Assembly (NCBI GenBank): GCA_002694885.1
Contig: NZNM01000056.1
Coordinates: 6,462 to 70,461 of the forward strand
Direction of reading: 5' to 3'
DNA length: 64,000 nt
From: Opitutaceae bacterium
GTDB taxonomy: Bacteria > Verrucomicrobiota > Verrucomicrobiia > Opitutales > Opitutaceae
In this document: positions 9,726-31,798 of the stretch, piece by piece
How positions within the stretch are numbered: position 1 is the stretch's first letter
Layout: every line of letters begins with the position of its first letter
Notes under the pieces: model-generated
What the model was told of the DNA's origin: nothing
What the model saw: only the letters and a program-made list of their open reading frames with translations
The model's database searches: none
Position numbers and translations under genes: made by a program

Positions 9726-9774
9726 GCAGAGATGGGCTATCATTTCCCTGTTACCGCTTAAACCATTTCAGACT

Positions 9775-14187: not shown

Positions 14188-14402
14188 AGGGTGCTCTGGG
14201 TGGGTTTGCCCTCTGTCCGCCGAAATTTGCCAGTAATTCCGTGTCTGGTTTACCGGAAAAACAGCTTTTTGATGACCAGCGGCCGAACCGCTCTAAGGTT
14301 TTCTGCAACGATGGGTGGGCTTCTCCTAATGATTACTCGATCCAATTGCTAGGTCAGCGATAATCGGGAAGAAATTTTTCCAGTTTGTCGTTGAACCCTT
14401 TC

Positions 14403-15701
14403 ATGGCCTCCAAGCACGCTGAACCCACTCCAATTAGACCCAATCCTCCCTTCAAAGTGGGATTGATAGGGGTTACCGGCTACGGATACGACTATTTCAA
14501 GTGCCTATCGAAACTGGTTGAACAGGGTCGCATCGAATGGGGGGCTGTTACGATAATCAACCCGGATGAGGCAAGGGAGCAGATTCAGATTTTCGAGAGC
14601 TTAGGCGTCCCTATCTACGCTGACTACCGGCAGATGCTCAAGATGGAAAGCCGAGCTTTAGACTGGGTTTGCATCCCCACTGGGATCGGTTTCCACAAGC
14701 AGATGGCAGTCGATTGCCTCAAACTGGGTCTGCAGACTCTCGTGGAGAAGCCCTTGGCCCCAGTCTTGCAAGAGGTCGAGGCTATACAGGATGCGGAGAG
14801 GGAAGCGAACATCGTGGCATCGGTTGGTTTTCAGCACACTTACGTCGAGGATACCTGGAAGATCAAAAAGCGCTTGCTGGAAGGGGCGATTGGCCAAGTA
14901 CAGCGAGTGGATTGCCTAGGGCTCTGGCCGCGATCCAGGGATTACTACCACCGAAACGAATGGGCCGGTAAACTGCGAGTAGGGGATTCCTGGATTCTGG
15001 ATTCGCCTTTCCATAACGGACTTTCCCACCTGGTTAATCTAATTCTTTTTTGGCTGGGGGATACTTTGGAATCAGGGGCAGATCCGAAACAAATCAGCGC
15101 CGAACTCTATCGCGCCAAAGATATCGAGTCTTTTGATACAGTGCGTACCGTGGCGACGACGGAAAGCGGCGTGGAAGCGGCGGTCACCGTTTCTCATAGC
15201 TCACTGCATAACATCGACCCGGAGATTCGGATTACTGGTACCGAAGGTCAATTGCTCTGGCGGTATAGCGGGGCGCATTCGCTAGTGAGCGACAATGGTT
15301 CCGAGACGATCGTATCCTCGAATCCAGTCGAAATCCGAGCGCTCATGTTTGATGCCGTTGTCGACCGAATAGGGGGCGCCAAGTCCCGAAACTGTTCGAC
15401 CAGGTTAGCGAAAGGCGTTTGCAAGTGGGCTAACGCTATTCACGACACCTGCCCGATTGAAGATATTCCTGATAGATTTCGAGTTAAGGTATCCAGCGAG
15501 AACGGCGAAGCTTTCGACGCTATCGATAATCTAGAATACATCGCCCTTAAAGCCCACAACGAAGGCATTTCCCTAAAGGCGGCGGGGGCGCCTTGGGCTA
15601 TAGAGCCGTTGGTTCGCGACGTAAGCGACTACAGAGAGTTTGAAGGAAAGCTCTGTCACCCGGTTGATGGAAAGGGCAAGATTGTCGAAATTTCCTCCTA
15701 G
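14403..15701 (+). CDS. Gfo/Idh/MocA family oxidoreductase
   Basis: VGLIGVTGYG Rossmann fold, IPTGIGFH, LVEKPLA, VGFQH. Confidence 0.92.
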   Translation: MASKHAEPTPIRPNPPFKVGLIGVTGYGYDYFKCLSKLVEQGRIEWGAVTIINPDEAREQIQIFESLGVPIYADYRQMLKMESRALDWVCIPTGIGFHKQMAVDCLKLGLQTLVEKPLAPVLQEVEAIQDAEREANIVASVGFQHTYVEDTWKIKKRLLEGAIGQVQRVDCLGLWPRSRDYYHRNEWAGKLRVGDSWILDSPFHNGLSHLVNLILFWLGDTLESGADPKQISAELYRAKDIESFDTVRTVATTESGVEAAVTVSHSSLHNIDPEIRITGTEGQLLWRYSGAHSLVSDNGSETIVSSNPVEIRALMFDAVVDRIGGAKSRNCSTRLAKGVCKWANAIHDTCPIEDIPDRFRVKVSSENGEAFDAIDNLEYIALKAHNEGISLKAAGAPWAIEPLVRDVSDYREFEGKLCHPVDGKGKIVEISS

Positions 15702-15763: not shown

Positions 15764-17035
15764 ATGATGAATAGAAAGGCTTTCATCGGCGCGCTCGGAT
15801 TGGCGGCGCCTACGGTTTTCACCGCTTCGTGCAAACGGAAAGAGGACTCCTCGAAAGCGTTGCCAGCTTTCGACGAGAGTCAGCCCCAAAGCTTTTGGCA
15901 AGCGGTTCAGGGTCAGTTTACATTGAGGGAAAATCGCGCTTACTTGAACTGCGGTGGTCTAGGTCCAGCTCCAAAAGTCGTTCAAGACAAAGTTGTTTCC
16001 AAGATGAGGGAGCTGCAATCCGTCTCGGAATCCGGTCATTCCATCCTCGGTGAAACCAGAAAGGTGGCTGCCCGATTTTTCGGATCAAGCGAAGACGAAA
16101 TCTGCTTCACTCGCAACGCGACGGAATCGAATTCGATCATCGCTTCTGGCATTCCGATGCAGGCTGGCGACGAGGTGATTTTCGAATCCCATGCTCACCC
16201 AGGTGGATCGTTTCCTTGGCTTAATCGGCAGAATATGGATGGGATTCGAGTAAAAGTATTCGATCCAGACCCGAGCTCTATGGATAATACGCTAAACCGT
16301 ATCAATGACTTAATTACGGATCGAACAAAAGCCATTCAAGTGAGCCATATCACGGCTCCGACAGGGATTCTCTTGGATGTGGAGGCGATTGGAAAGCTGG
16401 CTGAGGAAAAGGGGCTGTGGTTTCACGTGGATGGGGCCCAAAGCGCTGGCATGATACCGATCGACTTCGCCAATATGAAATGCCATTCCTACGCAACGAG
16501 CGGCCACAAGTGGATGGGGGGACCGCGTGGCACCGGTTTATTGCTAGTGCGCCAAGACAGGATCGAGTCTGTTGTATCCTGGCACGTGGGAGCTTACTCA
16601 GAGTCCGAGTTTGGATTGCCCGACCGGTTCAAATTGCGTCCAACGGCGCTCAGATTCGAATACGGTACCCGCAACTCGGAACTGATTGCTGGATTGGGGG
16701 CAGCTATGGAATTTCAAGAATCCATTGGTAAGGACAGGATTGATGAACGGTCGTCGTATTTGGCCAACAGGCTACGCGAGCAATTGGAGAAGATCGACAG
16801 CATAACGGTGCTTACTCCTAAAGATGCGTCCATGCGGCGGGCCATTACCACGTTCCGAAGCGACCGAATGGATTTCGACGAAATAAATAACAGATTGTCG
16901 CGCGAGTACTCGCTTCGCTGTAGGCGAGTGACCGAAGTAGGCCTGAACGCGGTACGCGTCTCGACCCACATTTTCAACAGCGAGCAGGACTGCGATCGAG
17001 TAGCCGAAGCAGTCGCTAAAATCGTGGTAGGGTAG
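15764..17035 (+). CDS. Aminotransferase class V / cysteine desulfurase / isopenicillin-N epimerase-like PLP enzyme with a Tat-like (lipo)protein signal
   Basis: YLNCGGLG, TRNATES, HVDGAQ, SGHKWMGGPRGTG (PLP lysine); N-terminus NRKAFIG...ASC. Confidence 0.88.
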   Translation: MMNRKAFIGALGLAAPTVFTASCKRKEDSSKALPAFDESQPQSFWQAVQGQFTLRENRAYLNCGGLGPAPKVVQDKVVSKMRELQSVSESGHSILGETRKVAARFFGSSEDEICFTRNATESNSIIASGIPMQAGDEVIFESHAHPGGSFPWLNRQNMDGIRVKVFDPDPSSMDNTLNRINDLITDRTKAIQVSHITAPTGILLDVEAIGKLAEEKGLWFHVDGAQSAGMIPIDFANMKCHSYATSGHKWMGGPRGTGLLLVRQDRIESVVSWHVGAYSESEFGLPDRFKLRPTALRFEYGTRNSELIAGLGAAMEFQESIGKDRIDERSSYLANRLREQLEKIDSITVLTPKDASMRRAITTFRSDRMDFDEINNRLSREYSLRCRRVTEVGLNAVRVSTHIFNSEQDCDRVAEAVAKIVVG

Positions 17036-17064
17036 TTATTTGTTCGATACCTGAAAACCGCTTA

Positions 17065-17616
17065 CTACGGCTCCACTTGAACGATCATTTCGACTTCCAC
17101 CGCTGATCCCAGGGGTAATGAGCTAAAGCCGCTGGCGGCTCGAGCATGCCGGCCCTTTTCGCCGAACACTTCGACCAGGAGATCGGAACAGCCATTAATT
17201 ACTTGGGAGTGCCCAGTGAAGGAGTCGGTAGCGTTGACCATGCCGAATACCTTGAGAACGCGTTTTACTTTGGAGAGATCGCCAATCTCCGCTTTCAAAG
17301 TCGCCAGCAATCCGACCCCGCATAGTCGAGCGGCGTTGTATCCATCTTCTACAGATAGATCTGCACCGACTTTGCCAACTACCAGCGAGCCATCCGCTTT
17401 CCTTGGGATGTGCCCCGATAGAAAGACTACGTTACCCATACGAGTGGCTCCCACGTAGTTAGCGATCGATTTGGCTGGAATTGGCAGCTCGATGCCAAGC
17501 TCTTTCAGCTTATCTTCCGGGCTGGCTGCTAGTAGAGCGTTACTGGGACAAAGAACTAAGGCCAGGAAAGCGAAAATTGAAAGGCGGCGGAGGGCTATGA
17601 ATTTGAATCGGCGCAT
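17065..17616 (-). CDS. RidA/YjgF/UK114 superfamily protein with an N-terminal signal peptide
   Basis: KLKELGIELP, VFLSGHIP, INGCSDLL..VFG..GRHARAASG..LP.G.AVEVE. Confidence 0.92.
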   Translation of the reverse strand: MRRFKFIALRRLSIFAFLALVLCPSNALLAASPEDKLKELGIELPIPAKSIANYVGATRMGNVVFLSGHIPRKADGSLVVGKVGADLSVEDGYNAARLCGVGLLATLKAEIGDLSKVKRVLKVFGMVNATDSFTGHSQVINGCSDLLVEVFGEKGRHARAASGFSSLPLGSAVEVEMIVQVEP

Positions 17617-17839
17617 GATTTTGTGAAATTGGTCAAATCTTCGAGGACCGTCAACTGACTATCAATTACTATTGGGTAAAGAATCAAACCTTTTTGCATG
17701 TGGTATAATTGGCTTTTCGCAATAATGCAGCCATTCGACGGGTGGACGATCCGTCTAGTGCAGGAGGGCTAATAGACTCTCTTGGATGGTCAGCCTTGCC
17801 ATCGGAAAAACTCGATATCCACTTTCGATTCCATATCGT

Positions 17840-19753
17840 CTAGTTTGAAAGAACACTGTCCGAAATGCTTACCGTATTGAAGTCTAGGGTACGCTTTAAA
17901 CGCCCATGGGTTATATCCAGTATTCGAGATCCTTTTTCCGCATTGAGGTAGGGTCCCTCAAAAAGTTTCCATTTACTGTAGTCGATTGTTCTGCCATTCA
18001 CTTGCGGAGCCGATCCGTACCGGGATTCCAGCCTAGCTCCTCGGAACGTCCGCAGGGATACCTGGGGCGTTGGCTCAAGCTCGAATGTCAGGCTCTGGTT
18101 CTTGATAGCGGATTTGAAGGCGTCGAAATCCGCGAATTCGGAAACCGAAGCGGCTTGGGCGATGGTCCCGTTCTTGTTTCCGGGGCTGATTAATACCTGG
18201 CTGCCCGACGCGACCCGTTCATATTGGTAGCCATTTCCAGTCGACGGCAGTCGCTTGTAAGCCATGTGGGCTTCCCATCGATAGTCGGCCATGGGAAAGT
18301 AGGCGAGATAAGCATTTTCTCCACGGGCGAAAATCCATCCTGATTCATCCTCTTCGAGATCCTCCAGGTCCTTGGAGAAAAAGCCGTTCACTTGCTCGAA
18401 TCTCGTTCCCTGAGGAATGTCATAGAGGGCGATAATCGTGTCCTCATGTTGAAAAACTTTTTCGTAGGGCGAGCAGCCCACGAGCTTGTCTGCCACGTCG
18501 TATGAGGGCTTCCCTTCGGCTGCCACGGCTTTAACCATGGTATCCGGCCTCACGTTGAAATAGGCCTGCATGGCCTTGTGCGACGAGTAGGGATGGATCG
18601 AAAACAATGTCGGATGCTTGCCTCGGGGATCGGGCGTGGCCCAGGTGATGTCCCAAACGTGCGACTGGATAGGATCGGCCATACCGCCTTGATAGGATCC
18701 CACTGCGTAGTCGTTTGTCATATACGTGGTTTTGTAGATGGGAGCTTTCCCGACGTCGCTGTACCGCCAACGGTGACGCGAACGTTTGAGGTCCCTTTGC
18801 GTAAAGCTCTGGTCGCGATCCATGCCGATGCGGTAGATCACCTCAGGAAGATGATAGTTAGCGGCAACGATAGCATAGTAGTTGCCCCAGCTGAATCCTC
18901 GGGTAGGCGGGCAGTTCCCGAAATTCAGCCAGGAAAAGAAAGAGCTGAGACTATTCCAGCGCTCAACTACCGAAGAGTCATCAGTGCGGGCGTTGGGGCC
19001 TCTTAAAACGCCGCTCAGGGTATTCGCAGCCAGCCCAGCGTAAAGAAAATCGAGGAACATCTGCCCGCGTAGTCGCATCTCTGGATCCTTGGCCCAGGAC
19101 TGAAGATAGATCATTGGAATGGCGTATTCACCGATGTAGTGGGTAGGATTGAATTCACCCTGTCCAATGGTGGTGGCGATGTTCATCCAGTCGATCAGGT
19201 AGTCGCGCGATTCTTCCAGGTTCTCCTCGGAGCTTTTGCCATTGTACCATTCCGTTCCGGGCTCGTTTGGGTAGAGCTCGGACATCAGGTAAAGCATGGT
19301 GTAGTACATGGCGAAATGGTTTTCCGTATCGCCTCGCAACTGGTACGATTCTTTCCAAGCGCGTCGAATCGCTTGACGGGCCTCATCGGATAGCTTCCCC
19401 CGTCCCATGAAGGCGACGCAAGTCGTAGGCAGCATCCAAAATGGACCAGAACCCGGATTCTCCATGAGTTCTATTACCCGAGCGTTGCAAGCCTCGATGT
19501 TTTGGTTTAGTAGAAGATTTGCGGATACAGAAGCCATATCCATTTTCTCGGCATCGCCTCGCTCAACGATGCCGGCTCGCCATTCGATGACCTCATTGAC
19601 TCGGTCCAGGTATGCGGCCCTGCGTTGCATCGGATCTTCTACGATCTCCAAGCTCGGGTGAGGACCTTCGTAGGAAGGTTGCGCCATGGCGAGGGCGCCT
19701 ATGGTAGTCGAGGCGAGAATGCGGACGAATTTCTCGAGATGGAAAAGGCTCAT
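17840..19753 (-). CDS. Secreted hypothetical protein, paralog A (RGDTENH family; possibly alpha/alpha-toroid lyase-like)
   Basis: Signal peptide from MSLFHLEK; shares many motifs with 23038..24966. Start moved so as not to overlap the BNR gene. Confidence 0.7.
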   Translation of the reverse strand: MSLFHLEKFVRILASTTIGALAMAQPSYEGPHPSLEIVEDPMQRRAAYLDRVNEVIEWRAGIVERGDAEKMDMASVSANLLLNQNIEACNARVIELMENPGSGPFWMLPTTCVAFMGRGKLSDEARQAIRRAWKESYQLRGDTENHFAMYYTMLYLMSELYPNEPGTEWYNGKSSEENLEESRDYLIDWMNIATTIGQGEFNPTHYIGEYAIPMIYLQSWAKDPEMRLRGQMFLDFLYAGLAANTLSGVLRGPNARTDDSSVVERWNSLSSFFSWLNFGNCPPTRGFSWGNYYAIVAANYHLPEVIYRIGMDRDQSFTQRDLKRSRHRWRYSDVGKAPIYKTTYMTNDYAVGSYQGGMADPIQSHVWDITWATPDPRGKHPTLFSIHPYSSHKAMQAYFNVRPDTMVKAVAAEGKPSYDVADKLVGCSPYEKVFQHEDTIIALYDIPQGTRFEQVNGFFSKDLEDLEEDESGWIFARGENAYLAYFPMADYRWEAHMAYKRLPSTGNGYQYERVASGSQVLISPGNKNGTIAQAASVSEFADFDAFKSAIKNQSLTFELEPTPQVSLRTFRGARLESRYGSAPQVNGRTIDYSKWKLFEGPYLNAEKGSRILDITHGRLKRTLDFNTVSISDSVLSN

Positions 19754-19763
19754 GCGGAAATCG

Positions 19764-20783
19764 CTACTTTCTAGAATTTGGGAGGAATACGAAGCTGTTG
19801 ATGGCGGATCCTTCGAGTCCGGCTTTCTTCCATGTTTTTCCGAAGTCCGAAGATTCGTATAGCGCCTTTTGATACAGGCTGGCAAGCAAGGTGCCCGAGT
19901 CGGGGTCGACGCCTACTCGCCAAATACGATGGGGCTTGGGTAGTCCCTCGTTGCGAGGCTTCCAAGTGGCTCCCCCATCTTCCGAAGCGAGAACGCCGTA
20001 AGTGTAGCTGCCGATCGCTAGGCGACCAGGATTCGTGGGGTCGAAAGCGATGTTGTACAAAGCGGCTTCGGAGGGGACTTGATCGAAGGCGGTCCAGCTT
20101 CTTCCTCCGTTGCGAGAGATATAGGCTCCCGCGCTTTGGGTTACAGCTGCCCAAATGTCGGGATCGTGAGGCGATTGCTGAACATCGTTGACCGTTTCTT
20201 CCGTGACCAAAGTCTTTCGCCAGGACCTGGCGTCGTTTTGGCTCAAATAAATGCCCGATTCGCAACCGGCCAGGATATGGCCCTTTCGGGAGCGGTCCAC
20301 CTCGATGGTTTGCGTGTATTTTCCACGGTCGGGGAGACCACGCTCTCGTTTCGTCCAGGTCATTCCACGATCATCGGATACCGCTATACCTCCAGGGTGG
20401 GCCAAGTAGACGCGATCGGGATTGTGCGGATCTACGCAAACATCTTTAGGCTCGGTAATATCCCAACTGGTCGTGACGCGCCAGCTATCGCCGCCATTTA
20501 CTGTGCGAAGCGCTCCATTCAAGGCTGCCGTATAGAAAGTATTGTGATCGCGAGGATCAAACGAGACGGCGAATATGCTGGGGTCGTTGATTCCGACATG
20601 GGCCCACTGCCCATTGGCCTGGCGTAGGTGCAGCCCGCTGGTGGTAGTGATCTTCGATCCGATTACGTAGTTCCGGTTGACGGCGGCGCAAACATAGAGG
20701 TCGTAAGTACGATCTTGTCCGATAGCAATAAGGGGCAGAAAAGAGGCAAGCAGTGCAGCTAGAGGGATAAATTTGAGAGACAT
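19764..20783 (-). CDS. Secreted BNR/Asp-box repeat beta-propeller protein A
   Basis: Signal peptide; repeated SxDxGxTW boxes (TVNGGDSW, SDDRGMTW, SRNGGRSW, SEDGGATW, SSDFGKTW). Confidence 0.85.
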   Translation of the reverse strand: MSLKFIPLAALLASFLPLIAIGQDRTYDLYVCAAVNRNYVIGSKITTTSGLHLRQANGQWAHVGINDPSIFAVSFDPRDHNTFYTAALNGALRTVNGGDSWRVTTSWDITEPKDVCVDPHNPDRVYLAHPGGIAVSDDRGMTWTKRERGLPDRGKYTQTIEVDRSRKGHILAGCESGIYLSQNDARSWRKTLVTEETVNDVQQSPHDPDIWAAVTQSAGAYISRNGGRSWTAFDQVPSEAALYNIAFDPTNPGRLAIGSYTYGVLASEDGGATWKPRNEGLPKPHRIWRVGVDPDSGTLLASLYQKALYESSDFGKTWKKAGLEGSAINSFVFLPNSRK

Positions 20784-20984
20784 GGTAGCTAGTTCCTATC
20801 TTGCGGACCGTTTCGCTGGCGTAAAGCGAGTCCTCCATTTTACGATACACCAGGCAAATACCTTTGTCGCTTAGGATAGCGCGTTAGTCGTAATCGGGCC
20901 CAATCGGAGTGATCCTATCTGAAGATATCGCCGCGTTAGCGGTGGCATGAGGCTGTTTGCCACAATCCCCAAATCTATACATCA

Positions 20985-21974
20985 ATGAAATCGAACGCGG
21001 TGGTCTTCAAAGACCGAAATCATGTGGTTTACGAATCGGTTGAATGCCCGGATCCAGGGCCGGATCAGGTAGTGGTCAATGTAACGCACTCTTGGATCAG
21101 CAACGGTACGGAAGGTTCGTATTTGCGGGGCGAACGGATTGAAGGGGATACGCCTTGGCGTCCGGGGGATCCGCATCCTTTTCCCGTCATCGCGGGCTAC
21201 CAAAAGGTTGGCTTTGTGGATTGGGTAGGATCCGAAGTGGATGGGTTGTCGAAAGGCGATTCGGTCTTTGTGTCAGTCAGCGCGGTAACCGATATGTTTG
21301 AGCCCCGCGGCGGCCATATTTCCCCGTCGGTATCGGGAGCGGGGGCCGTAATCAAATTGCCGCCGGGTTTAGACCCGGTTGCCTATTCGGGCCTAGTCCT
21401 TACTCAGGTGGGTTTCAATTGCGGTGATCGGCCGCGGTTGGAGCCTGGGGATCTCGCGGTAGTTGTTGGTGATGGTCTTGTCGGACAGTGGGCTGCCCAG
21501 ATGCTGGCCTCCCGAGACGCGAAAACGCTGCTCATCGGTAGACATGCGGATCGTTTGGCCAAATTTAAAAGCGGAGAGACGCTCCTCGAAGACGAGGGAG
21601 CCTGGGTAGATTTGGTTCGAGAGCGGTTCCCCGAAGGCGCTCAAGTTGGAGTAGACACCGTAGGATCCCTCAAAGTTATGGGGCAGCTAGAAAGCATGAT
21701 GAAGCGTTTTGGCCACCTGGTTTCCGCCGGCTTTTATGGTCCGGAGGATCGACTGCCATTGCAGCCGCCGCGCTATAAGGAGCTTTCGATCGACTTGGTT
21801 TCCGGTGCCACGCGAGAACGTCTGGAGAAAACCATGGATCTGGTTGCTCAGGAAAAACTGGATACGCTTTCGCTGATTACCCATCGATTTCCAGTGGAAC
21901 AGGCTGCTCAAGCATGGGATCTAATCGAGTCGAAACGGGAACCAGTGTTAGGGGTCGTACTAGAGTGGGTGTAA
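20985..21974 (+). CDS. MDR-family (zinc-binding) dehydrogenase, atypical SxGTE type
   Basis: GroES-like N-domain with ISNGTE and AGYQKVG; Rossmann VGDGLVG; LITHRFPVEQAAQAW. Confidence 0.85.
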   Translation: MKSNAVVFKDRNHVVYESVECPDPGPDQVVVNVTHSWISNGTEGSYLRGERIEGDTPWRPGDPHPFPVIAGYQKVGFVDWVGSEVDGLSKGDSVFVSVSAVTDMFEPRGGHISPSVSGAGAVIKLPPGLDPVAYSGLVLTQVGFNCGDRPRLEPGDLAVVVGDGLVGQWAAQMLASRDAKTLLIGRHADRLAKFKSGETLLEDEGAWVDLVRERFPEGAQVGVDTVGSLKVMGQLESMMKRFGHLVSAGFYGPEDRLPLQPPRYKELSIDLVSGATRERLEKTMDLVAQEKLDTLSLITHRFPVEQAAQAWDLIESKREPVLGVVLEWV

Positions 21975-21976
21975 GG

Positions 21977-22942
21977 ATGAAAGCGATACAGTACATAGAA
22001 AAAGGGCGTCCGGAAATCGTCGAGCTCCCCATTCCGCAGCCGGGAGAAGGCCAAGTTTTGGTTAAGATTTCCGGCGTGGCGACTTGTCCTCAATGGGATA
22101 TGCATATCATGGATGGCGTTCCCATGGCTCCCGGAGGCAAGTTGGAATATCCTTACACTCCCGGTCAGCCGGGACATGAGGCTACGGGCAAAGTGGCAGA
22201 GCTTGGTCCAGGAGTAACGGAGTTCGCAGCTGGTGATCGGGTTGCCTTTTGGCAAGACCAGGCTGGGGCTAAGCAGGGATGCTATGCCGAGTACGTCTTG
22301 GCTGATGTGGGCAACCTGCTTCAGGTACCCGGTTTTCTAGAACCTCAGGAGATTGCCTCCCTAGAACTGGCTATGTGCGTGCAGGTTTCGTTCGACCAGA
22401 TTCAGAACGTCGCTCCCATTAAAGACAAACGATTCGCGGTCGGTGGTTTGGGGCCTGCGGGCTTGGTGGCCATTCAACTTGCCAAAGCCCATGGGGCCGC
22501 CGAAGTGATCGCTTTCGACCCGGTAGAAAGCCGTCGTCAGTTGGGGGCTGAGCTAGGAGCGGATCGAGCCCTAGACCCGACCGACGAGGAGGCCTTTCCC
22601 CACGACCGCTTCAGTTCGGAGGCCATCGATCTCGCCATTGATTGCGTGGGCTTTCCTGCTTCCATCGAGTATTTGATGGGCAAGACGAAGGACATGGTCG
22701 CTCTTTTTGGCGTGTTGCGGGAAGACGTTCGCTTTGGCTTCAAGCATTGGTGTCGGGGCTTGCACTTGGTTGGGTATGGAACTCACAATCGAGGCGCTGC
22801 GGAGACCGCTTTAGATCTAATCGTTTCTGGCAAACTGAAATTGAAGCCACTAATCTCTAGAACCTTGCCCCTCGAATCCTATTCCGAAGGAGTCGCCTTG
22901 TTGCAAAAGCGGGAGGCGATAAAGGTGTGTTATATACCTTAA
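21977..22942 (+). CDS. Zinc-dependent alcohol/sugar dehydrogenase (MDR)
   Basis: ATCPQWD, PGHEATG, VGGLGPAG; start MKAIQY directly after the upstream stop. Confidence 0.9.
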   Translation: MKAIQYIEKGRPEIVELPIPQPGEGQVLVKISGVATCPQWDMHIMDGVPMAPGGKLEYPYTPGQPGHEATGKVAELGPGVTEFAAGDRVAFWQDQAGAKQGCYAEYVLADVGNLLQVPGFLEPQEIASLELAMCVQVSFDQIQNVAPIKDKRFAVGGLGPAGLVAIQLAKAHGAAEVIAFDPVESRRQLGAELGADRALDPTDEEAFPHDRFSSEAIDLAIDCVGFPASIEYLMGKTKDMVALFGVLREDVRFGFKHWCRGLHLVGYGTHNRGAAETALDLIVSGKLKLKPLISRTLPLESYSEGVALLQKREAIKVCYIP

Positions 22943-23037
22943 GCAGAACACCCTTGTGTTTTACCTTACACCGCAAAAATATTTGTAGTCTCGCCATTGC
23001 CTTCCCAGGAATCGCTATTGCTGCCTCCAAGCCGTTT

Positions 23038-24966
23038 ATGATCTCCCCATACCGCCTATTGCATTTTACGCGTTGCCTGGCTGTCGCGGCGATACTCGTC
23101 GGTAGCTCTGTCAACGGAGACGATAGCCCGCCGGTTGCCGAAATCAGCGAAGCCGATCTGGTCCACCAATATAGGGAGCGCTGCGACTACGTCATTGATC
23201 AAACGGTTGCCAACACCGATCCGAATGACCTGACACGGGGAAGCAATTTCACGATTGCGGCCAATCTCTTTCGTGGAGCAAACCTGGATTGGGCCAGGGA
23301 GCGGCTTCGCCTTTCCAACGACCCTCCAACAGGGGCCATGTTCTGGATGCATCCCATGGCCTTGCTGATGCATGTCGGGCGGGAAGAGCTCAACGAGGAC
23401 GACTGGGCTTTCATTCGCGAGCTTTGGCGAACCTACTTTCCGTATCGAGGGGACACGGAAAACCATTGGGTGATGTATTATGTGAGCCTGTATTTGGTGG
23501 CGGAAATGTTTCCCGATGCCGGTCCTGAAGCTTGGTACAACGGAAAATCCTCTGTGGAGATCATGGCGGATGCCAAGGAGTTCATTCTCGACTGGATGCG
23601 GATCACCACCTCCTACGGGCAAGGAGAGTATGATTCTCCCAACTACATAGAAGAGTACACCCGACCCATGGCATTGCTGGTAGGTTGGGCTCGCGATCCC
23701 GAATTGCAGCAGATGGGCAAGATGATGATGGACTACATCCTGCTCGATTATGCGGTCGAAAATCTGGGCGGCCTCTACGGTGGGGCCCACAGTCGGCTCT
23801 ATCCTCGATACTTGCTTCAACCGGGAATGGCTCACTCGGCTGCCCATGCTTGGCTGCTTTGGGGGCAAGGCGAGTTCAGCTCCAATGGGGGAACACTGAT
23901 GATAGCGATGAGTGGATACACGCCGCCTTCGATTCTGTTTAGGATCGCGTCGGATCGGGACAAGGCCTATGTCCACAAGGAGCTTAAGCGAACTCGTTGG
24001 CGGTTTAGGCACGCCGGGCCTAATGCATTCGAAGTGGATGGGAAGAGCACGATCCCCGTTTACAAGTATAGTTACGTACACCCGGACTTCATTCTCGGCT
24101 CATCTCAAGGAGGCCTGTTACAGCCTATTCAACAGCAAACATGGAGTTTGGTTTGGCGGGAGGAGAATTTGGAGGGCAAATCCAACACGATGTTTGGCCT
24201 ACAGCCCTATTCGTCTCCCATCGAAGGCACTATGTTTTTCAATTCCGATTGGGATACAGTCACCGATCTGATTGCCAGATCCAAAGTCGACTATGATTCG
24301 CCCGACAAGCTCGAAGGCGGTTCACCTTACGAGCAGGTTTTCCAGCACGAAGCGACCTTGATAGCCCTTTACAATATTCCTGAAGGTACGCGTTTTCCTC
24401 TTATCAGTACGCTGTTTTCCAGAGATGTGAATCGTCGGGTCGAAGACGAATCGGGATGGATTTTCGGACAAGGTGGTCCCGTCTACATCGCCTACCGGCC
24501 TTTTGCCCCAGGGGAGTGGAAACCAGTTGATTGGACAGGGCTGCTAAAAGGCGGAGCTGGGGCTTGGTTTAGCACAGGCTTCAAAGAATTATCCGAAGGA
24601 AGCGAGTGCCTGGTTAGCTACTCCTTGAAAAATGGATACATAGTAGAGATCGCCCCGGTAAGCGCATACGAAACCTACCGGGATTTCCAGGAAGCAGTAA
24701 GAGCTCTCCCAGTCGAGGTGCGTCTCGAGCCTACCCCTCGAGTCCGCTACACCAATCTGGATGGCGTTAAACTGGAGGCTGAGTACGGAAGGACACCTTC
24801 AGTCGATGGAGAGAATGTGGACTATTCCAGCTGGAAACTTTTCGATGGTCCCTTCGCCCAAGCGGAACGGGAAAGCCAGTCCTTGGAAATGATATACGGA
24901 TCCGAGCGCTATGTCTTGGACTTCAAGAATCGGAGCGCGGAAACATCCGTGGTAGAAAGCGAATGA
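23038..24966 (+). CDS. Secreted hypothetical protein, paralog B (RGDTENH family; possibly alpha/alpha-toroid lyase-like)
   Basis: Signal peptide; YRGDTENH, WYNGKSS, GQGEYDSPNY, GGAHSRLY, SPYEQVFQHE. Confidence 0.72.
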   Translation: MISPYRLLHFTRCLAVAAILVGSSVNGDDSPPVAEISEADLVHQYRERCDYVIDQTVANTDPNDLTRGSNFTIAANLFRGANLDWARERLRLSNDPPTGAMFWMHPMALLMHVGREELNEDDWAFIRELWRTYFPYRGDTENHWVMYYVSLYLVAEMFPDAGPEAWYNGKSSVEIMADAKEFILDWMRITTSYGQGEYDSPNYIEEYTRPMALLVGWARDPELQQMGKMMMDYILLDYAVENLGGLYGGAHSRLYPRYLLQPGMAHSAAHAWLLWGQGEFSSNGGTLMIAMSGYTPPSILFRIASDRDKAYVHKELKRTRWRFRHAGPNAFEVDGKSTIPVYKYSYVHPDFILGSSQGGLLQPIQQQTWSLVWREENLEGKSNTMFGLQPYSSPIEGTMFFNSDWDTVTDLIARSKVDYDSPDKLEGGSPYEQVFQHEATLIALYNIPEGTRFPLISTLFSRDVNRRVEDESGWIFGQGGPVYIAYRPFAPGEWKPVDWTGLLKGGAGAWFSTGFKELSEGSECLVSYSLKNGYIVEIAPVSAYETYRDFQEAVRALPVEVRLEPTPRVRYTNLDGVKLEAEYGRTPSVDGENVDYSSWKLFDGPFAQAERESQSLEMIYGSERYVLDFKNRSAETSVVESE

Positions 24967-25976
24967 AGCGGACGACTATAGCATATTTCATCTTCGTACT
25001 CGTTATGGGCTTCTCGCCGCTTGAGGCTGAGGAAGAGAGTACTCTATTTATCGCTTTCGCTATGACCAAGGCCCAAGAGGCTAGCTCGATTCCCACCGAC
25101 TCGGGTATCTATCTGCGAAGTGAAAAGGACAATTCTTGGCATCGCATTGGCCCAGTCATTCAGTCGATGAACAGCCTGGCTGTGGATCCCTCTGCTCCCG
25201 CAACTATATTCATGGCCTGCGGCAATGGGATCGTTAGATCAAAAGATGGCGGAGAGACCTGGCGAATGGTTACGGGATGGCGGGAAAGTGATTTTCTCAA
25301 GATCGCCATCGATCCAGAAAATGGGGACAATATATACGGAACTTCCGTTTGGGGCTTTCACCTGAGCCGTGACGGCGGCGAATCCTGGACCTCGGCCAAC
25401 AAGGGGCTGAACGAAAAATATTGTCGGACAATCATCGTCGATCATCGCAATCAGAGACGTCTCGTGCTCGGGACGGGAGACGGTATCTATGAGAGCCGAA
25501 ACGGTGGTGAATCCTGGACTCGTGTCCGCAGCTCGCCCGAATCGGCGATTCTGAGGATGGACCGAAGCTTGAATAATCCCGATCTTTGGATTGCCGGATC
25601 CGAAGGAGAAGGTGTGTATTTGTCTGCCAATGACGGAAAATCCTGGCGCCCCGTTGCCGAAACCTTGAGCGAGGCCAATGTTTACGGCGTTTCGCTCCAT
25701 CCTGAAAACGAGAATCGTATGGCGGCGGGAGGATGGAGCGAGGGGCTTTGGGTGTCAAATGATGGTGGGGATTCCTGGGAGGACCGAAGTTCAGGACTGC
25801 CTTCCCAAAACGTTACAGCCGTTGTATTCGATGAGAATCATCCCGATAGGCTATGGGTTTCGACTTTTGAAGAAGGCACCTATTACACGGATGACGACGG
25901 CAAGACCTGGAAAGATGGCGATTTGTATGGAGCCTATGTGTTCGATTTGGACTTTGTTACCAGCGCCAAAGAATGA
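24963..25976 (+). CDS. Secreted BNR/Asp-box repeat beta-propeller protein B
   Basis: Signal peptide; SKDGGETW, SRDGGESW, SRNGGESW, SANDGKSW, SNDGGDSW, TDDDGKTW; ATGA overlap with paralog B. Confidence 0.85.
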   Translation: MKRTTIAYFIFVLVMGFSPLEAEEESTLFIAFAMTKAQEASSIPTDSGIYLRSEKDNSWHRIGPVIQSMNSLAVDPSAPATIFMACGNGIVRSKDGGETWRMVTGWRESDFLKIAIDPENGDNIYGTSVWGFHLSRDGGESWTSANKGLNEKYCRTIIVDHRNQRRLVLGTGDGIYESRNGGESWTRVRSSPESAILRMDRSLNNPDLWIAGSEGEGVYLSANDGKSWRPVAETLSEANVYGVSLHPENENRMAAGGWSEGLWVSNDGGDSWEDRSSGLPSQNVTAVVFDENHPDRLWVSTFEEGTYYTDDDGKTWKDGDLYGAYVFDLDFVTSAKE

Positions 25977-25980
25977 TGCC

Positions 25981-26850
25981 ATGCCGTATTTCCGATCGGC
26001 TATTTGTCTGAGCTTTCAGGTTCTCCTGATATCCGCTTTATGTCTGGCGCTTTTAGGATGTATGGAAAATAGCGTTATAGATACTTTGCCTAGCGATAAC
26101 CAACGCGAAAATGTGAACGCCCTTTTGCTCAGCGCGACTACGAATCCGGGGCAAAAGTCTCTCGAACACGCGAAAGCCGATATCACGAAAACCTTTGGGT
26201 CAGTGAATCGCATATTGCTAATAAATTACGCCAGTCTCCCGAATAGGCGCGACGCCTATGCGAAACGAATGAAGCGAGAATTCGCTCAGATCGGCCCAGG
26301 CTACACAGTGAAATCCCTCCATGCCATCCCCGCTGACCAGCGTTTAGCTGCGGTCCGAGATACGGAAGGATTCTACGTTAGCGGAGGGAACACCTTCTTG
26401 CTTTTAAGGGAGCTCTACGGTGGCGATTTGCTTGTGGCAATCCGAGAGCGGGTCTTGCAAGGCGCCCCTTATGTGGGTTCCAGTGCGGGGTCGAACATCG
26501 CGGGCCAATTCATCGGCACCACCAACGATTTTCCCATAACCGACATCCCAACCCGCAGAGCTCTGGGATTGATGGCTGCCAATTTCAATCCGCATCACCC
26601 CGATCAAATAGCGGAGGAAGTCGAATTTGGTTTCCGCCAATACAAGATCGGGGAATATGTGGCCCATAACCAAGACGAAGTGGTGATTGGCGTGACCAAT
26701 CCAGGGATGCTGCGAATCCAGGGCAATATGCTCTCCCTTAGAGGAGAGGGCGGTACTGCCTATATCAGCTACCGAGGGGAAAAACAGACGGTGTCTTCGC
26801 TGGCGGACGGGGATATCTCCCGTGCCGTCGAATCATTGCGAAGCAGGTAG
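25981..26850 (+). CDS. pepE: Dipeptidase E (peptidase S51) with a lipoprotein signal
   Basis: VSGGNTFLLL, GSSAGSNI (nucleophile Ser), FNPHH; lipobox LALLGC. Confidence 0.85.
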   Translation: MPYFRSAICLSFQVLLISALCLALLGCMENSVIDTLPSDNQRENVNALLLSATTNPGQKSLEHAKADITKTFGSVNRILLINYASLPNRRDAYAKRMKREFAQIGPGYTVKSLHAIPADQRLAAVRDTEGFYVSGGNTFLLLRELYGGDLLVAIRERVLQGAPYVGSSAGSNIAGQFIGTTNDFPITDIPTRRALGLMAANFNPHHPDQIAEEVEFGFRQYKIGEYVAHNQDEVVIGVTNPGMLRIQGNMLSLRGEGGTAYISYRGEKQTVSSLADGDISRAVESLRSR

Positions 26851-26902
26851 TCCCCTTCGTTAAAAATACGTCATCGGCCTCAAAAAGGTTTGACCTGCTT
26901 TT

Positions 26903-26921
26903 GCAAACGAGTCTCAATTTT
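26903..26921. promoter_or_regulatory. Weak Fur-box-like site upstream of the iron-islet AraC gene
   Basis: GCAAACGAGTCTCAATTTT matches the E. coli consensus GATAATGATAATCATTATC at 11/19 by hand; context is an iron-uptake locus. Confidence 0.3.
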
Positions 26922-26951
26922 GACGTTATTGAGATTCATTATCTTTAAGCA

Positions 26952-27878
26952 ATGGTTCCTTGTCCCTTCCAACAACCTGTTGAATCGATTGCCCAATTCG
27001 GTGGTATCAATGCTCGGCGTCGTCAATTCACACAGCGTCAGGGATTGTCGTTTGGTGCCTACCGGATCCCGGAAGCGTCGAACTGCTTCTCGTGGCCATT
27101 CGAATCGTTCTTGCAAATCGTATTCGTGACCAAGGGCCGCGTATCGGTAGGCCTGCCTGATGAGGGATCAACCTCTGCTATTCAAGGGGAATGGTTTGTT
27201 ATTTCCCTTGGAGCATGGGCTGGAACAACATCGTTTGAGTGCGAATCTCAGATTGGGGTAATTGAATGCTCGAAAGAGGTCTGGCAAGGTTTGGTTAACG
27301 AGGAAGATACTCTCCTCCACGCGAGAAAAGCTTGTTATAGCTGTTCACAGCGCGAAGAAGCGATTCTGACAAAAGGAATCCAAGATGCCCGTATGCGAAA
27401 ACTTTCAGAAGGTTTGCTTAACAATATAGGTGCTTCACCCAGCGATCGACTCTTAGTCGAATCTATGACCCTCGAATTTTTGGCACGGGTTTGTGACTCA
27501 AAATTCATTTCGGGATCTTCAAAGTCAGAACCATGCTACAGAAGCAGGGATGAAGAAGCCCTTGCAGCAGCCGCTAGTTACTTGGAAGGAAATCTCGATG
27601 AGAATCATTCCCTTGCCGGCTTAAGTCGGAAGTTTGCCTTGAACGAATTCAAGTTAAAACGCGGTTTCCGAGAACGGTTTGGTATAACTGTTTTCGGTTA
27701 CCTGAGACAGTGCCGCATGGATCGGGCTCGTCAGTTGTTACTCAGCCGCAGGTATACGGTTCTAGAAGTCGCGAATGCAGTCGGTTATGCGAACCCTAGC
27801 CATTTTGCCAGGGCTTTTCGGGGATGTTTTGGACTAAACCCTAAGGCTTTTTTAGCAGGTTCGGCTCGACAATCCTAA
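26952..27878 (+). CDS. AraC family regulator, PchR/YbtA-like (siderophore-uptake type)
   Basis: LSRKFALNEFKLKRGFRERFGITVFGYLRQCRMDRARQLL, EVANAVGYANPSHFARAF; adjacent to a TonB receptor. Confidence 0.92.
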   Translation: MVPCPFQQPVESIAQFGGINARRRQFTQRQGLSFGAYRIPEASNCFSWPFESFLQIVFVTKGRVSVGLPDEGSTSAIQGEWFVISLGAWAGTTSFECESQIGVIECSKEVWQGLVNEEDTLLHARKACYSCSQREEAILTKGIQDARMRKLSEGLLNNIGASPSDRLLVESMTLEFLARVCDSKFISGSSKSEPCYRSRDEEALAAAASYLEGNLDENHSLAGLSRKFALNEFKLKRGFRERFGITVFGYLRQCRMDRARQLLLSRRYTVLEVANAVGYANPSHFARAFRGCFGLNPKAFLAGSARQS

Positions 27879-28279
27879 TTGCAAAAAGCCTGTGCGTTAT
27901 GAGGCGATCGAAAATACGCGATTTTTATGAAATGCTGCGAAAATTAAAAGGTTCCTTAGACCTATTTGCAATAAGTGTGGTCACGTAGCCAGTGAAACTT
28001 CGATTCTTTGCAAAACTAAAAATATGACCCGTGGGTGAGCCACTAAAAGAAGAAGAGATTTACCTCGGATCGTGATTTCCAGTGAAAGGTATTTTGTGTG
28101 TAGTTAGGATTGGGAATTGTGGCAGAAAGATCTGAATTGAAGCGCATATGCTCCAGCGTGGAGCAGTTTTTCTCCCGATCGGAGTAGAATAAAAGATTAC
28201 AAATGGGTATAGTAATGCCTTAGACAAAGTTCGGTTTGGAACCAGGATTTTGTCAAAATTACTCAAACTAATACTCAAA

Positions 28280-30334: not shown

Positions 30335-30383
30335 TTATTTAGTTTTTAAACGATAAGGTTCGTTTTTTCATGGATAGGTCAAT

Positions 30384-30413
30384 CGGGCTATGCTGAGGCA
30401 TAGCCCGTTTTTT
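30384..30413 (+). terminator. Rho-independent terminator
   Basis: CGGGCTATGC TGAG GCATAGCCCG TTTTTT. Confidence 0.9.
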
Positions 30414-30631
30414 ATTAGTATGAATATTTAATCGTTTAAGAGAAACTAAAGAGTCAGCAAATATAGTGAATAGTTGTGCTTTGAAAGTGTATCATACCGA
30501 AAGAACTTAATGTATTCTGACCAGTGCTAATCTAAGTCGTGTTTATTGGCTAAAGAAAATAAATCCTTTTAGGAGTATGCTTTTTTCTTCTTGGAGTGGA
30601 AAAGACCGAATTCATACGGTAGACTGTTGCG

Positions 30632-30940
30632 ATGGTTGAACATTTTAGTGCAATACGATGCGAAATATTAGCTCCAGATGATCACGCACTGGTCGATATC
30701 GGAAAAATCGCTAAAACCTGTGCAATAGATCTTGGTATCAATGTTCCACTAATTTTGATTGGATCTCATCAGATAAGTCGAGAGACCGAATCGGCTATAT
30801 CGTTAAAAATACCTAAGGAAATAGCTATTTTAAATGATGGGATATGGAAGCTAGCTAGTCGGATTGCCTGCTTCTGCCCGGAAATACGAGTATCTACTCA
30901 GATATATAGCCAAAGCAACTTTAGCTCAATTCAGCTATGA
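30632..30940 (+). CDS. Hypothetical protein, 102 aa
   Basis: ORF overlaps the next gene by ATGA (30937-30940), implying translational coupling. Confidence 0.55.
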   Translation: MVEHFSAIRCEILAPDDHALVDIGKIAKTCAIDLGINVPLILIGSHQISRETESAISLKIPKEIAILNDGIWKLASRIACFCPEIRVSTQIYSQSNFSSIQL

Positions 30941-31797
30941 ACAGAATTCCGCGAGAAGATTTTCGGAAAACAGAACCTATTAGTCGTGATTGCAGGGGAT
31001 TGATTATCGCGACTAACGATGAAGGTTTAATCGCTTTGAAGCCAGATTTTGTCGAACTGTTCAGTCAATTAACATCTTTGCCTGAATACTATTTACAAAC
31101 TCGCCATGCGTACACCACCTTAATAGCTAGAAGGCGTCATGTAGAGTTACGAAGTATCAAAAATACGAATCTAATTTCAGACTGCGAAGAAAGTATCCAG
31201 TTGGATAGGACAAGTAGTCATCGTATGTATGCTCACGTCTCTCGCTGTGAATGCTGCGGGTCCCCAGGCCGCATTGAAGTTCGAAATAAGCACAATTTAG
31301 AGGTATTACAGATTTGTTGTCCTCCTATAGTGAAAGCTATAGACTGGGGTAAGATTATAGCACTTTCTTCGATGGAAGAAGGAGTGAGCCACTTCAGAAG
31401 TGATAGGGAGCATTATCCATTCATTCCAAAATCGGCTAAGAAAATTTCTAGTCATCCTTCGAAAATAACGAAATTCTTTGAATTTCTTCGTGAGCGATCA
31501 ATTGCGTTTGTTGCGACTTTAGAAACGGATGGAGTTATTCATAGAGAGAAAATTCTAGCGGAAAGAATTGAATGTAGTGATGAGATTCTGATTGTTAAAG
31601 GTACCTCGCAGACACTGCGCCTAGACTTGGCTGCCGCACTTTCCCTGTTCTCGTTGGATGTCGACGGTTCAAACACAATCTACGTTGCTGGAGATCAAAA
31701 TGTTCAGCTCTTATCAATTAAGGTTATCTCGTCTGCCAAAACTAAAAAATATTTGCCGATTTGGACTAACTTTTTTGGCGAAGATAAAGTGCGATAG
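30937..31797 (+). CDS. Divergent HemS/ChuS/ChuX-like (hemin-degrading fold) protein with a CECC motif
   Basis: Two halves resemble HemS repeats (LKPDFVELF..L..L....LQTRH; FFEFLRERSIAF..TLETDGVIH); located downstream of an iron receptor. Confidence 0.55.
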   Translation: MNRIPREDFRKTEPISRDCRGLIIATNDEGLIALKPDFVELFSQLTSLPEYYLQTRHAYTTLIARRRHVELRSIKNTNLISDCEESIQLDRTSSHRMYAHVSRCECCGSPGRIEVRNKHNLEVLQICCPPIVKAIDWGKIIALSSMEEGVSHFRSDREHYPFIPKSAKKISSHPSKITKFFEFLRERSIAFVATLETDGVIHREKILAERIECSDEILIVKGTSQTLRLDLAAALSLFSLDVDGSNTIYVAGDQNVQLLSIKVISSAKTKKYLPIWTNFFGEDKVR

Positions 31798-31798
31798 A

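What the first reader, a model, noticed from the sequence alone, without database searches (positions are those of the whole stretch)
17840..25976. Mirrored pair of unknown RGDTENH enzymes, each coupled to its own BNR propeller
Seen: two approx. 640-aa secreted paralogs on opposite strands share FWMxP, RGDTENH, WYNGKSS, GQGE, PxYKxxY, GSxQGG..PIQ, SPYExVFQHE.T.IALY.IP.GTRF, EDESGWIF and WKLFxGP. Each is tightly coupled to a different Asp-box propeller (10-nt gap; ATGA overlap), with the order swapped, around two dehydrogenases. At one aligned site A reads GPNARTDD and B reads GAHSRLYP. Established: Asn-His plus His/Tyr residues are catalytic in alpha/alpha-toroid polysaccharide lyases (heparinase II/III-like). 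Inference: a new lyase-like family acting with propeller partners; A and B differ in specificity, or A is a non-catalytic subunit.
Basis: partly seen in the sequence, partly recalled or inferred. Interest (0 to 1): 0.78.

Follow-up and report, generated by a model that had tools for sequence, protein, structure and literature searches.

The report
Lyase-fold enzymes paired with propeller partners
Two diverged copies of an unnamed, exported enzyme with the fold of uronic-acid polysaccharide lyases each sit beside their own seven-bladed propeller protein, and this pairing (sometimes fused into one chain) holds across hundreds of genomes, pointing to an undescribed two-part sugar-degrading enzyme family.

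Summary
Enzyme A (17840-19753, minus strand) and enzyme B (23038-24966, plus strand) are 35% identical (E 2e-140). Their Asp-box propeller neighbours are also paralogs, at 31% identity. Neither enzyme matches any Pfam, NCBIfam or PDB sequence. A confident AlphaFold model of B (pLDDT 94) matches only the (alpha/alpha)-toroid plus beta-sandwich uronate lyases and dermatan-sulfate epimerase 1. The identity in those matches is 7-12%.

The family keeps E141, N142-H143 and Y203 at the starts of two helices, one helix apart. This resembles the Asn/His...Tyr pattern of those lyases. Whether the beta-domain His is kept is uncertain.

The propeller link is strong. In 84 of 89 testable enzyme genes a propeller gene lies within 400 nt on the same strand. 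Twenty-four of the 389 retrieved proteins are natural single-chain fusions, in both orders. The enzyme and propeller trees mirror each other (distance r 0.90).

A keeps every near-invariant residue, so it is not a dead subunit. It is a long-branch specificity variant.

My reading is a new sequence family of a known fold superfamily, probably acting on acidic glycans, with an obligate propeller partner. The chemistry and the substrate are unproven.

The parts
17840..19753 (-). Enzyme A, 637 aa. Exported toroid plus beta-sandwich protein of the unnamed RGDTENH family, A-type clade (NPT / NAR signature).
   Evidence: It is 35% identical to B, has 60-90% identical orthologs across Opitutales, and keeps E144/N145/H146/Y206/R256 (A numbering).
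19764..20783 (-). Propeller A, 339 aa. Exported Asp-box (BNR) propeller, 10 nt upstream of enzyme A on the same strand.
   Evidence: In the propeller tree it falls in the clade of propellers partnered with A-type enzymes (support 100).
20985..21974 (+). MDR-type dehydrogenase 1, 329 aa, with no signal peptide.
   Evidence: It is conserved with MDR2 just upstream of enzyme B only in the window's own lineage: 11 loci, including L009-L018 and L085.
21977..22942 (+). MDR-type Zn-dehydrogenase 2, 321 aa.
23038..24966 (+). Enzyme B, 642 aa. Exported toroid (about residues 38-305) plus beta-sandwich (about 311-640) protein, B-type clade (DSP / HSR signature).
   Evidence: AF2 pLDDT 94.1, pTM 0.92. 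Foldseek matches only toroid lyases and DS-epimerase 1.
24963..25976 (+). Propeller B, 337 aa. Exported single seven-bladed Asp-box propeller. Its start overlaps the enzyme B stop (ATGA).
   Evidence: AF2 pLDDT 91.9. The nearest folds are 3b7f, single lobes of GH74, DAIP and Ycf48.
25981..26850 (+). S51-family peptidase, 4 nt after propeller B. Probably the last gene of the B operon.
   Evidence: It recurs after enzyme-propeller pairs in about 10 loci.
15764..17616 (.). Class-V PLP enzyme (15764-17035, +) and a Rid/YjgF protein (17065-17616, -, same strand as and downstream of enzyme A). This pair recurs as a neighbour of the enzyme-propeller unit.
   Evidence: The PLP enzyme lies within about 6 kb of the pair in more than 30 loci from Opitutaceae and Rhodothermales, and where the flank reaches far enough the Rid gene follows it.

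Best explanation
Enzymes A and B belong to a large family that has no name at the sequence level. The family is built on the (alpha/alpha)-toroid plus antiparallel beta-sandwich scaffold of uronate-acting polysaccharide lyases (PL12/15/17/21/33/35) and DS-epimerase 1.

Each enzyme is made together with, and most likely binds, its own exported seven-bladed Asp-box propeller. I propose that the two form a heterodimer, in the periplasm or at the cell surface, that works on an acidic (uronate-containing, possibly sulfated or rhamnose-bearing) glycan.

Proposed chemistry:
- N142/H143, with the invariant E141, hold and neutralise the uronate carboxylate.
- Y203 removes the C5 proton and protonates the leaving glycosidic oxygen (beta-elimination).
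- A belt of near-invariant Arg/Lys residues (R137, R253, R307, R318, R320, R324, K343) binds the anionic chain.
- The propeller is not an enzyme of a known kind. It more likely supplies part of the binding cleft or holds the substrate.

The two-gene module was duplicated long ago. A and B are two specificity variants that differ in loops next to the presumed catalytic face (positions 199-201 and 251-252).

Shown: the paralogy, the fold, the residue conservation, the pairing, the fusions and the co-divergence. Inferred: the physical complex, the residue roles, the lyase chemistry and the substrate class.
For: - Fold: the AF2 model of B has pLDDT 94.1 and pTM 0.92. All 19 Foldseek PDB matches with E<=1e-3 are toroid plus beta-sandwich uronate enzymes: 6hzn, 3a0o, 8khv/8khw, 8r6z-8r75, 9o3q, 2fuq/3e7j, 6jpn, 8bdd, 3vsn/3vsm.
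- Conserved residues: E141 100%, N142 and H143 86%, Y203 95%, R253 97%, plus K343, E432, Q436 and Y445.
- Position of the motif: N142/H143 open helix 141-157 and Y203 opens helix 204-217, one helix apart and 60 residues apart. In the solved families the Asn/His-to-Tyr spacing is 53-56: N238/Y291 in PL33, H202/Y257 in PL21, H311/Y365 in PL15, H205/Y261 in DS-epi1 (PMC11848413; PMC8006597).
- Pairing: 84 of 89 testable enzyme genes in 88 loci have a propeller gene within 400 nt on the same strand. The 4-nt overlap is conserved in L001, L002 and L004.
- Fusions: 24 single-chain fusions, 19 propeller-first and 5 enzyme-first. The two fusions I read in full (P0038, P0246) have no signal peptide on the downstream module.
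- Co-divergence: the propeller tree reproduces the A, B and Rhodothermales clades of the enzyme tree, and pairwise distances correlate at r 0.90.
- Carbohydrate setting: remote members are fused to CBM9, BACON, CHB_HEX_C, F5/8-type-C, Laminin_G_3 and dockerin modules. Neighbours include GH78-like, heparinase II/III-like, GH127, sulfatase, TonB-dependent receptor and LacI genes.
Against: - There is no sequence-level link to any lyase family. The PDB profile search found nothing, and hhalign against a neighbouring heparinase II/III-like protein gave probability 0.4.
- Foldseek TM-scores are only 0.31-0.44 with large rmsd. The fold class is clear, but no residue superposition was possible because the tools give no coordinates.
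- The beta-domain His that activates the Tyr in PL33/PL15/PL21 has no clearly conserved counterpart. The best candidate, position 389, is H in most members but Q in B itself and in close relatives.
- An invariant Glu (E141), together with E197, D220 and E432, would also suit acid/base hydrolysis.
- The nearest relatives of the propeller include protein-binding propellers (Ycf48, DAIP).
- No expression, activity or substrate data exist. No RNA runs were found and no paper was found.
Confidence: 0.5

Rival explanations
1. The scaffold is the same, but the enzyme is a polymer-level uronate C5-epimerase like DS-epimerase 1. It would remove and re-add the C5 proton without cleaving the chain.
For: The best Foldseek match is human DS-epi1, 6hzn (E 9e-8, highest TMq 0.44). 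DS-epi1 uses His205, Tyr261 and Tyr473 without relying on His450 as base, which would fit a family whose beta-domain His is dispensable.
Against: The loci look catabolic (TonB-dependent receptor, LacI, GH78-like, sulfatases, peptidases), which argues for breakdown rather than remodelling. The other 18 significant structural matches are lyases.
Confidence: 0.12
2. A glycoside hydrolase, or another non-eliminative enzyme, that re-uses the lyase scaffold with the invariant acidic residues (E141, E197, D220, E432) as acid/base. It would possibly act on neutral or rhamnose-rich glycans.
For: E141 is the only 100% invariant residue. E197, D220 and E432 are 97-98% conserved. A remote subgroup replaces N-H with H-E but keeps E141. 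A GH78-like gene follows the pair in about 25 loci.
Against: No glycoside hydrolase appears among the significant fold matches. The dense belt of invariant Arg/Lys fits an anionic substrate.
Confidence: 0.17
3. A is a catalytically dead subunit, or A and B work as a hetero-complex, as the first reader suggested as an alternative.
For: A carries N in place of H251 and NPT in place of DSP just before Y203. A also sits on a long stem branch (0.76). In this lineage the two modules are kept side by side (L009, L011, L013, L014).
Against: A keeps all invariant and near-invariant residues. Position 251 varies across the family (H/N/C/R), and some A-clade members keep H (P0171, P0246). A-type orthologs are as conserved as B-type ones (about 60% identity across Opitutaceae). 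A-type pairs occur without a B-type gene in the fetched flank (L005, L006), B-type pairs occur alone, and 7 of 16 genomes have one copy.
Confidence: 0.06
4. The pair is not an enzyme. It would be a binding or scaffolding complex, for example one that captures glycan or glycopeptide for uptake, or that regulates the neighbouring peptidase, using a protein- or peptide-binding propeller like Ycf48 or DAIP.
For: The propeller has few conserved polar residues outside its Asp boxes: R92, Y125, D160, R166. Its structural relatives include Ycf48 and DAIP. S51 and M28 peptidases are neighbours.
Against: The enzyme shows an active-site-like pattern of conserved polar residues. The family occurs in multidomain secreted proteins with CBMs and dockerins, which is typical of enzymes.
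Confidence: 0.08

Closest known systems
PL33 hyaluronan/heparosan lyase BT4410 (8r6z-8r75) and PL35 GAGases (8khv, 8khw)
   Same: Two-domain (alpha/alpha)n toroid plus antiparallel beta-sandwich of about 600 aa. An Asn stabiliser and a Tyr acid/base lie about 53-60 residues apart at the starts of successive toroid helices.
   Different: Identity is 7-10% with no profile-level similarity. His444/Tyr470 equivalents are not identified. The known enzymes act alone, with no propeller partner.
PL15 (Atu3025, 3a0o), PL17 (6jpn, 8bdd) and PL21 heparinase II (2fuq, 3e7j)
   Same: Same fold class. They use an Asn/His...Tyr apparatus on uronates. Heparinase II/III-like genes are neighbours in the window's own lineage.
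   Different: Those are larger proteins (740-780 aa) with extra domains and an HxH/metal motif in the beta-domain. Here the candidate position reads H/Q-P-Y/H and is not conserved in B.
Human dermatan sulfate epimerase 1 (6hzn)
   Same: Best structural match (E 9e-8, TMq 0.44). Its catalytic His205 and Tyr261 show the same spacing logic.
   Different: It is a eukaryotic Golgi biosynthetic epimerase. Here the context is catalytic breakdown, the Mn site (His452/Glu470/Asn481) was not identified, and identity is 10%.
GH74 xyloglucanases and the single-propeller protein Reut_B4987 (3b7f)
   Same: The partner is a seven-bladed Asp-box propeller. The best match is 3b7f (TMq 0.72), followed by single lobes of GH74.
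   Different: GH74 needs two fused propellers that form a catalytic cleft. Here there is one propeller, and its constant companion is a toroid enzyme instead of a second propeller. 3b7f has no known function.

Membership tests
Toroid plus beta-sandwich uronate lyase/epimerase superfamily (PL12/15/17/21/33/35/39, DS-epi1) | N-terminal (alpha/alpha)n toroid followed by a C-terminal antiparallel beta-sandwich | tested here: met
   AF2 pLDDT 94.1, with helices at 38-305 and strands at 311-640. All 19 significant Foldseek PDB matches belong to this superfamily.
Toroid plus beta-sandwich uronate lyase/epimerase superfamily | Asn/His carboxylate stabiliser and Tyr acid/base at the starts of successive toroid helices, about 53-56 residues apart | tested here: inconclusive
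   N142/H143 (86%) and Y203 (95%) are conserved, open helices 141-157 and 204-217, and lie 60 residues apart. No coordinate superposition on a solved lyase was possible.
Toroid plus beta-sandwich uronate lyase/epimerase superfamily | Beta-domain His (HxH/metal loop) next to the Tyr, plus a second Tyr | tested here: inconclusive
   The only candidate is position 389-391 (H/Q/N-P-Y/H). It is Q in enzyme B and in several close relatives. Y445 and E432 are conserved, but their equivalence is unknown.
Any named lyase sequence family (Pfam Hepar_II_III_N/C, alginate lyase families; solved PL sequences) | Significant sequence or profile match | tested here: not met
   No Pfam or NCBIfam hit at E<=0.1. 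phmmer and hmmsearch against the PDB found nothing relevant. hhalign against a heparinase II/III-like protein gave probability 0.4. CAZy itself could not be searched.
Polysaccharide lyases (functional class) | Beta-elimination giving 4,5-unsaturated uronate ends | not testable with these tools
   This needs an enzyme assay.
GH74 (for the propeller) | Two tandem seven-bladed propellers forming a cleft, with a catalytic Asp in each lobe | tested here: not met
   The protein is a single propeller of about 315 residues. Matches cover only half of the GH74 chains (TMt about 0.3).
NCBIfam NF045728 'F510_1955 family glycosylhydrolase' (for the propeller) | Score above the curated cut-off of 175 bits | tested here: not met
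   94.3 bits (propeller A) and 137.4 bits (propeller B).
Ycf48 / PSII assembly factor (for the propeller) | Equivalog-level match (NF010237, cut-off 326 bits) | tested here: not met
   30.5 and 40.9 bits. Only the generic PSII_BNR/BNR repeat domains match.

The most novel reading that the evidence does not exclude
The enzyme and its propeller form an obligate two-subunit carbohydrate-active enzyme in which the propeller completes the substrate cleft, much as the second lobe does in GH74. This architecture is not known for any polysaccharide lyase. It would define a new CAZy-type family that targets an acidic algal or cyanobacterial glycan for which no degrading enzyme is known. The recurring exported PLP enzyme, Rid protein and peptidases hint that the substrate may carry amino-acid or amino substituents.
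Probability: 0.3. Interest if true: 0.75.

Novelty: new variant of a known kind. Interest (0 to 1): 0.6.

Why it matters
Verrucomicrobiota (Opitutales) and Rhodothermales are major degraders of complex algal and microbial glycans, and a large share of their exported proteins has no assigned function.

This family has thousands of members and 1-4 copies per genome in one Opitutales family. It is annotated only as "hypothetical protein", yet it has a confident lyase-type fold and an almost invariable propeller partner.

If the pair is a two-subunit lyase, it would add a new enzyme family and a new architectural principle (toroid enzyme plus propeller subunit) to glycan degradation. It would also give a handle on an unknown, probably acidic, marine or freshwater polysaccharide. 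The A/B duplication offers a natural pair for mapping specificity determinants.

Tried and rejected
- Sequence routes to a known family all failed: Pfam and NCBIfam, phmmer and a 58-sequence profile against PDB sequences, and hhalign against a neighbouring heparinase II/III-like protein.
- I tried to model the complex through a natural fusion (P0038) with unpaired enzyme and propeller rows. MAFFT laid the propeller rows over the enzyme part (A3), so I dropped this and used the last structure job on propeller B alone.
- No model coordinates are available in the Python box, so I could not superpose residues or measure active-site distances. The residue roles rest on conservation and secondary-structure position only.
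A narrower alignment worked.
- RNA evidence: no RNA runs hold the region. DNA runs only show that the organism is marine.
- Literature: three searches found nothing on this family or on lyase-propeller pairs.
- The promoter and terminator scan of 17000-27000 showed nothing above the shuffled background.
- Rejected ideas: the propeller as a GH74-type or sialidase-type enzyme (single lobe, few conserved polar residues), and A as a pseudo-enzyme (all core residues kept).
Full report
**1. Observation**

The region holds the following genes:
- Enzyme A: 17840-19753, minus strand, 637 aa.
- Propeller A: 19764-20783, minus strand, 10 nt upstream of enzyme A.
- Two MDR-type dehydrogenases: 20985-21974 and 21977-22942, plus strand.
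- Enzyme B: 23038-24966, plus strand, 642 aa.
- Propeller B: 24963-25976, plus strand, with an ATGA overlap onto enzyme B.
- An S51 peptidase: 25981-26850, plus strand.

The two propellers are themselves paralogs, at 31% identity and E 2e-55. So what was duplicated is the two-gene module, with the gene order inverted in one copy. The genome holds only these two family members. GC content is unremarkable across the region.

**2. What the enzymes are**

Neither A nor B matches Pfam, NCBIfam or any PDB sequence, even with a 58-sequence profile. Public records call the homologs "hypothetical protein". One UniProt auto-name reads "Heparin-sulfate lyase N-terminal domain-containing".

The family is large:
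- About 1,900-2,200 clusters at 90% identity among the 8,000 candidates scored per query.
- 1,193 representatives at 50% identity with E<=1e-3.

Within the window's phylum it is concentrated in one family, at 1-4 copies per genome (20 of 301 sampled genomes). It also occurs in Rhodothermales.

An AlphaFold2 model of B built on 58 diverse homologs is confident (pLDDT 94.1, pTM 0.92). It has a helical domain at about 38-305 and a beta-sandwich at about 311-640.

Foldseek against the PDB returns 19 matches with E<=1e-3. All of them are toroid plus beta-sandwich uronate enzymes:
- DS-epimerase 1 (6hzn)
- PL15 (3a0o)
- PL35 (8khv, 8khw)
- PL33 (8r6z-8r75)
- a chondroitinase (9o3q)
- PL21 heparinase II (2fuq, 3e7j)
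- PL17 (6jpn, 8bdd)
- PL23 (3vsn, 3vsm)

Identities are 7-12% and TM-scores 0.31-0.44. This is a distant structural relative, not a sequence member of those families.

**3. Catalytic residues**

Across 58 diverse members:
- E141 is invariant.
- N142 and H143 are each 86% conserved. A remote subgroup reads E-H-E instead.
- Y203 is 95%, R253 97%, E197 98%, D220 97%, E432 97%, Q436 98% and Y445 97% conserved.
- R137, R307, R318, R320, R324 and K343 are 78-91% conserved.

N142/H143 open helix 141-157 and Y203 opens helix 204-217. That places them one helix apart and 60 residues apart. In the solved families, an Asn or His that neutralises the carboxylate and the catalytic Tyr are 53-56 residues apart: N238/Y291 in PL33, H202/Y257 in PL21, H311/Y365 in PL15 and His205/Tyr261 in DS-epi1 (PMC11848413; PMC8006597).

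I could not superpose coordinates, so the equivalence is inferred. The beta-domain His that activates the Tyr (H444 in PL33, H531 in PL15) has no secure counterpart. Position 389 is H in most members but Q in B and in close relatives.

The many invariant basic residues fit an anionic substrate. The invariant Glu leaves room for other chemistry.

**4. A versus B**

A keeps every invariant and near-invariant residue. Its clade markers are NPT instead of DSP at 199-201 and NA instead of HS at 251-252. Both sit in the loops just before Y203 and R253.

Position 251 is H in 76%, N in 19%, and C or R in the rest of the family. Some A-clade members keep H (P0171; fusion P0246). A-type orthologs are as well conserved as B-type ones.

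In the enzyme tree, A forms a clade on a long stem (0.76) with propeller-then-enzyme order. B forms a large clade with enzyme-then-propeller order. Rhodothermales members show both orders.

A-type pairs occur with no B-type gene in the fetched flank (L005; L006, which has three tandem A-type genes behind one propeller). B-type pairs occur alone (L001, L002, L004). Seven of 16 genomes with strong matches have a single copy.

So A is a diverged specificity variant. It is not a dead subunit or an obligate partner of B. The mirrored A/B arrangement around the two dehydrogenases is conserved in four related genomes (L009, L011, L013, L014).

**5. The propeller partnership**

- In 88 loci, 84 of 89 testable enzyme genes have a propeller gene within 400 nt on the same strand. 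The five exceptions are inner members of tandem enzyme arrays in L006 and L061.
- The 4-nt overlap is conserved in distant B-type pairs.
- Twenty-four of the 389 retrieved proteins are single-chain fusions, 19 propeller-first and 5 enzyme-first (Pfam checks).
- The two fusions I read in full (P0038, P0246) have no signal peptide on the downstream module, so they are real fusions rather than frameshifts.
- The propeller tree reproduces the A, B and Rhodothermales clades (supports 100, 99 and 96). Pairwise distances of enzymes and propellers correlate at r 0.90.

The propeller B model (pLDDT 91.9) is a single seven-bladed Asp-box propeller. It is closest to the uncharacterised Reut_B4987 (3b7f, TMq 0.72), to single lobes of GH74, to DAIP and to Ycf48. 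It scores below the cut-off for NF045728 and Ycf48. Outside the Asp boxes, only R92, Y125, D160 and R166 are conserved polar residues.

I read the propeller as a non-catalytic or cleft-forming subunit. A physical complex is strongly implied by the fusions but has not been shown.

**6. Context and substrate**

Three recurrent settings appear:
- The window's own lineage: heparinase II/III-like, MDR1, MDR2, enzyme, propeller, S51.
- Freshwater Opitutaceae: TonB-dependent receptor, LacI, a 305-aa unknown protein, enzyme, propeller, GH78-like, DUF6807, class-V PLP enzyme, Rid.
- Rhodothermales: class-V PLP enzyme, GFO oxidoreductase, propeller, enzyme, PhyH, GFO, SDR, PhyH.

Other loci add GH127, M28, a sodium/solute symporter (SSF family) and S51 (L005), or sulfatases (L006).

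Remote family members carry CBM9, BACON, CHB_HEX_C, F5/8-type-C, Laminin_G_3 and dockerin modules.

All this points to extracellular or periplasmic breakdown of a complex, probably acidic glycan. The substrate itself cannot be named. The organism is marine. No transcript data or literature were found.

**7. Verdict**

The family is new at the sequence level, lies within a known structural superfamily, and has an unprecedented obligate propeller partner.

My estimates for the chemistry are:
- lyase, about 0.5
- hydrolase or other non-eliminative chemistry, about 0.17
- epimerase, about 0.12
- non-enzymatic binding complex, about 0.08

The idea that A is a dead subunit or works in an A-B complex is a separate question, at about 0.06. 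I rate the finding as a new variant of a known kind, with interest 0.6.

Noticed in passing
window 15764-17616; loci L028, L035, L040, L043, L052, L055, L057, L060, L062, L069, L083, and Rhodothermales L073-L088: A class-V PLP enzyme, which in the window carries a Tat-like RK motif and a lipobox Cys, and a convergent Rid/YjgF gene recur within 4-6 kb of the enzyme-propeller pair in two phyla. This suggests the pathway handles an amino- or amino-acid-bearing intermediate outside the cytoplasm.
   Followed up: partly
loci L028-L070 (for example L042, L043, L051, L053): In freshwater Opitutaceae the pair is followed by a GH78-like (alpha-L-rhamnosidase six-hairpin) gene and a DUF6807 gene. It is preceded by a TonB-dependent receptor, LacI and a conserved 305-aa protein with no Pfam match.
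   Followed up: partly
L072, L078, L087, L088; window 9724-10698 and 14385-15701: Rhodothermales loci flank the pair with PhyH dioxygenases, GFO/IDH/MocA oxidoreductases and an SDR. The window's own island also holds a PhyH and a GFO gene, so parts of the 18-kb island are conserved across phyla.
   Followed up: no
L006:6167-11908 and L061:4065-9758: The enzyme gene occurs in tandem triplicate. In L006 the array follows one propeller and is flanked by sulfatases. In L061 no propeller lies within the fetched flanks.
   Followed up: no
proteins P0267, P0305, P0313, P0321, P0324, P0355: A remote subgroup of the family reads E-H-E (or E-H-D) where the rest reads E-N-H, and has lost the RGD Arg. This may be a different catalytic variant.
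   Followed up: no
L001, L002, L004 (about 4250-5870 in each): In several Opitutaceae genomes the B-type pair sits alone in a housekeeping setting, divergent from a 539-aa GNAT acetyltransferase-CN_hydrolase fusion protein.
   Followed up: no
window 114-2651 and 2958-5276: Two long ORFs (845 and 772 aa) have no Pfam match at E<=1e-5.
   Followed up: no
window 28000-32000: A low-GC stretch (0.40-0.42, against about 0.52 elsewhere) holds a TonB-dependent receptor. A sulfatase follows at 32242-33681.
   Followed up: no
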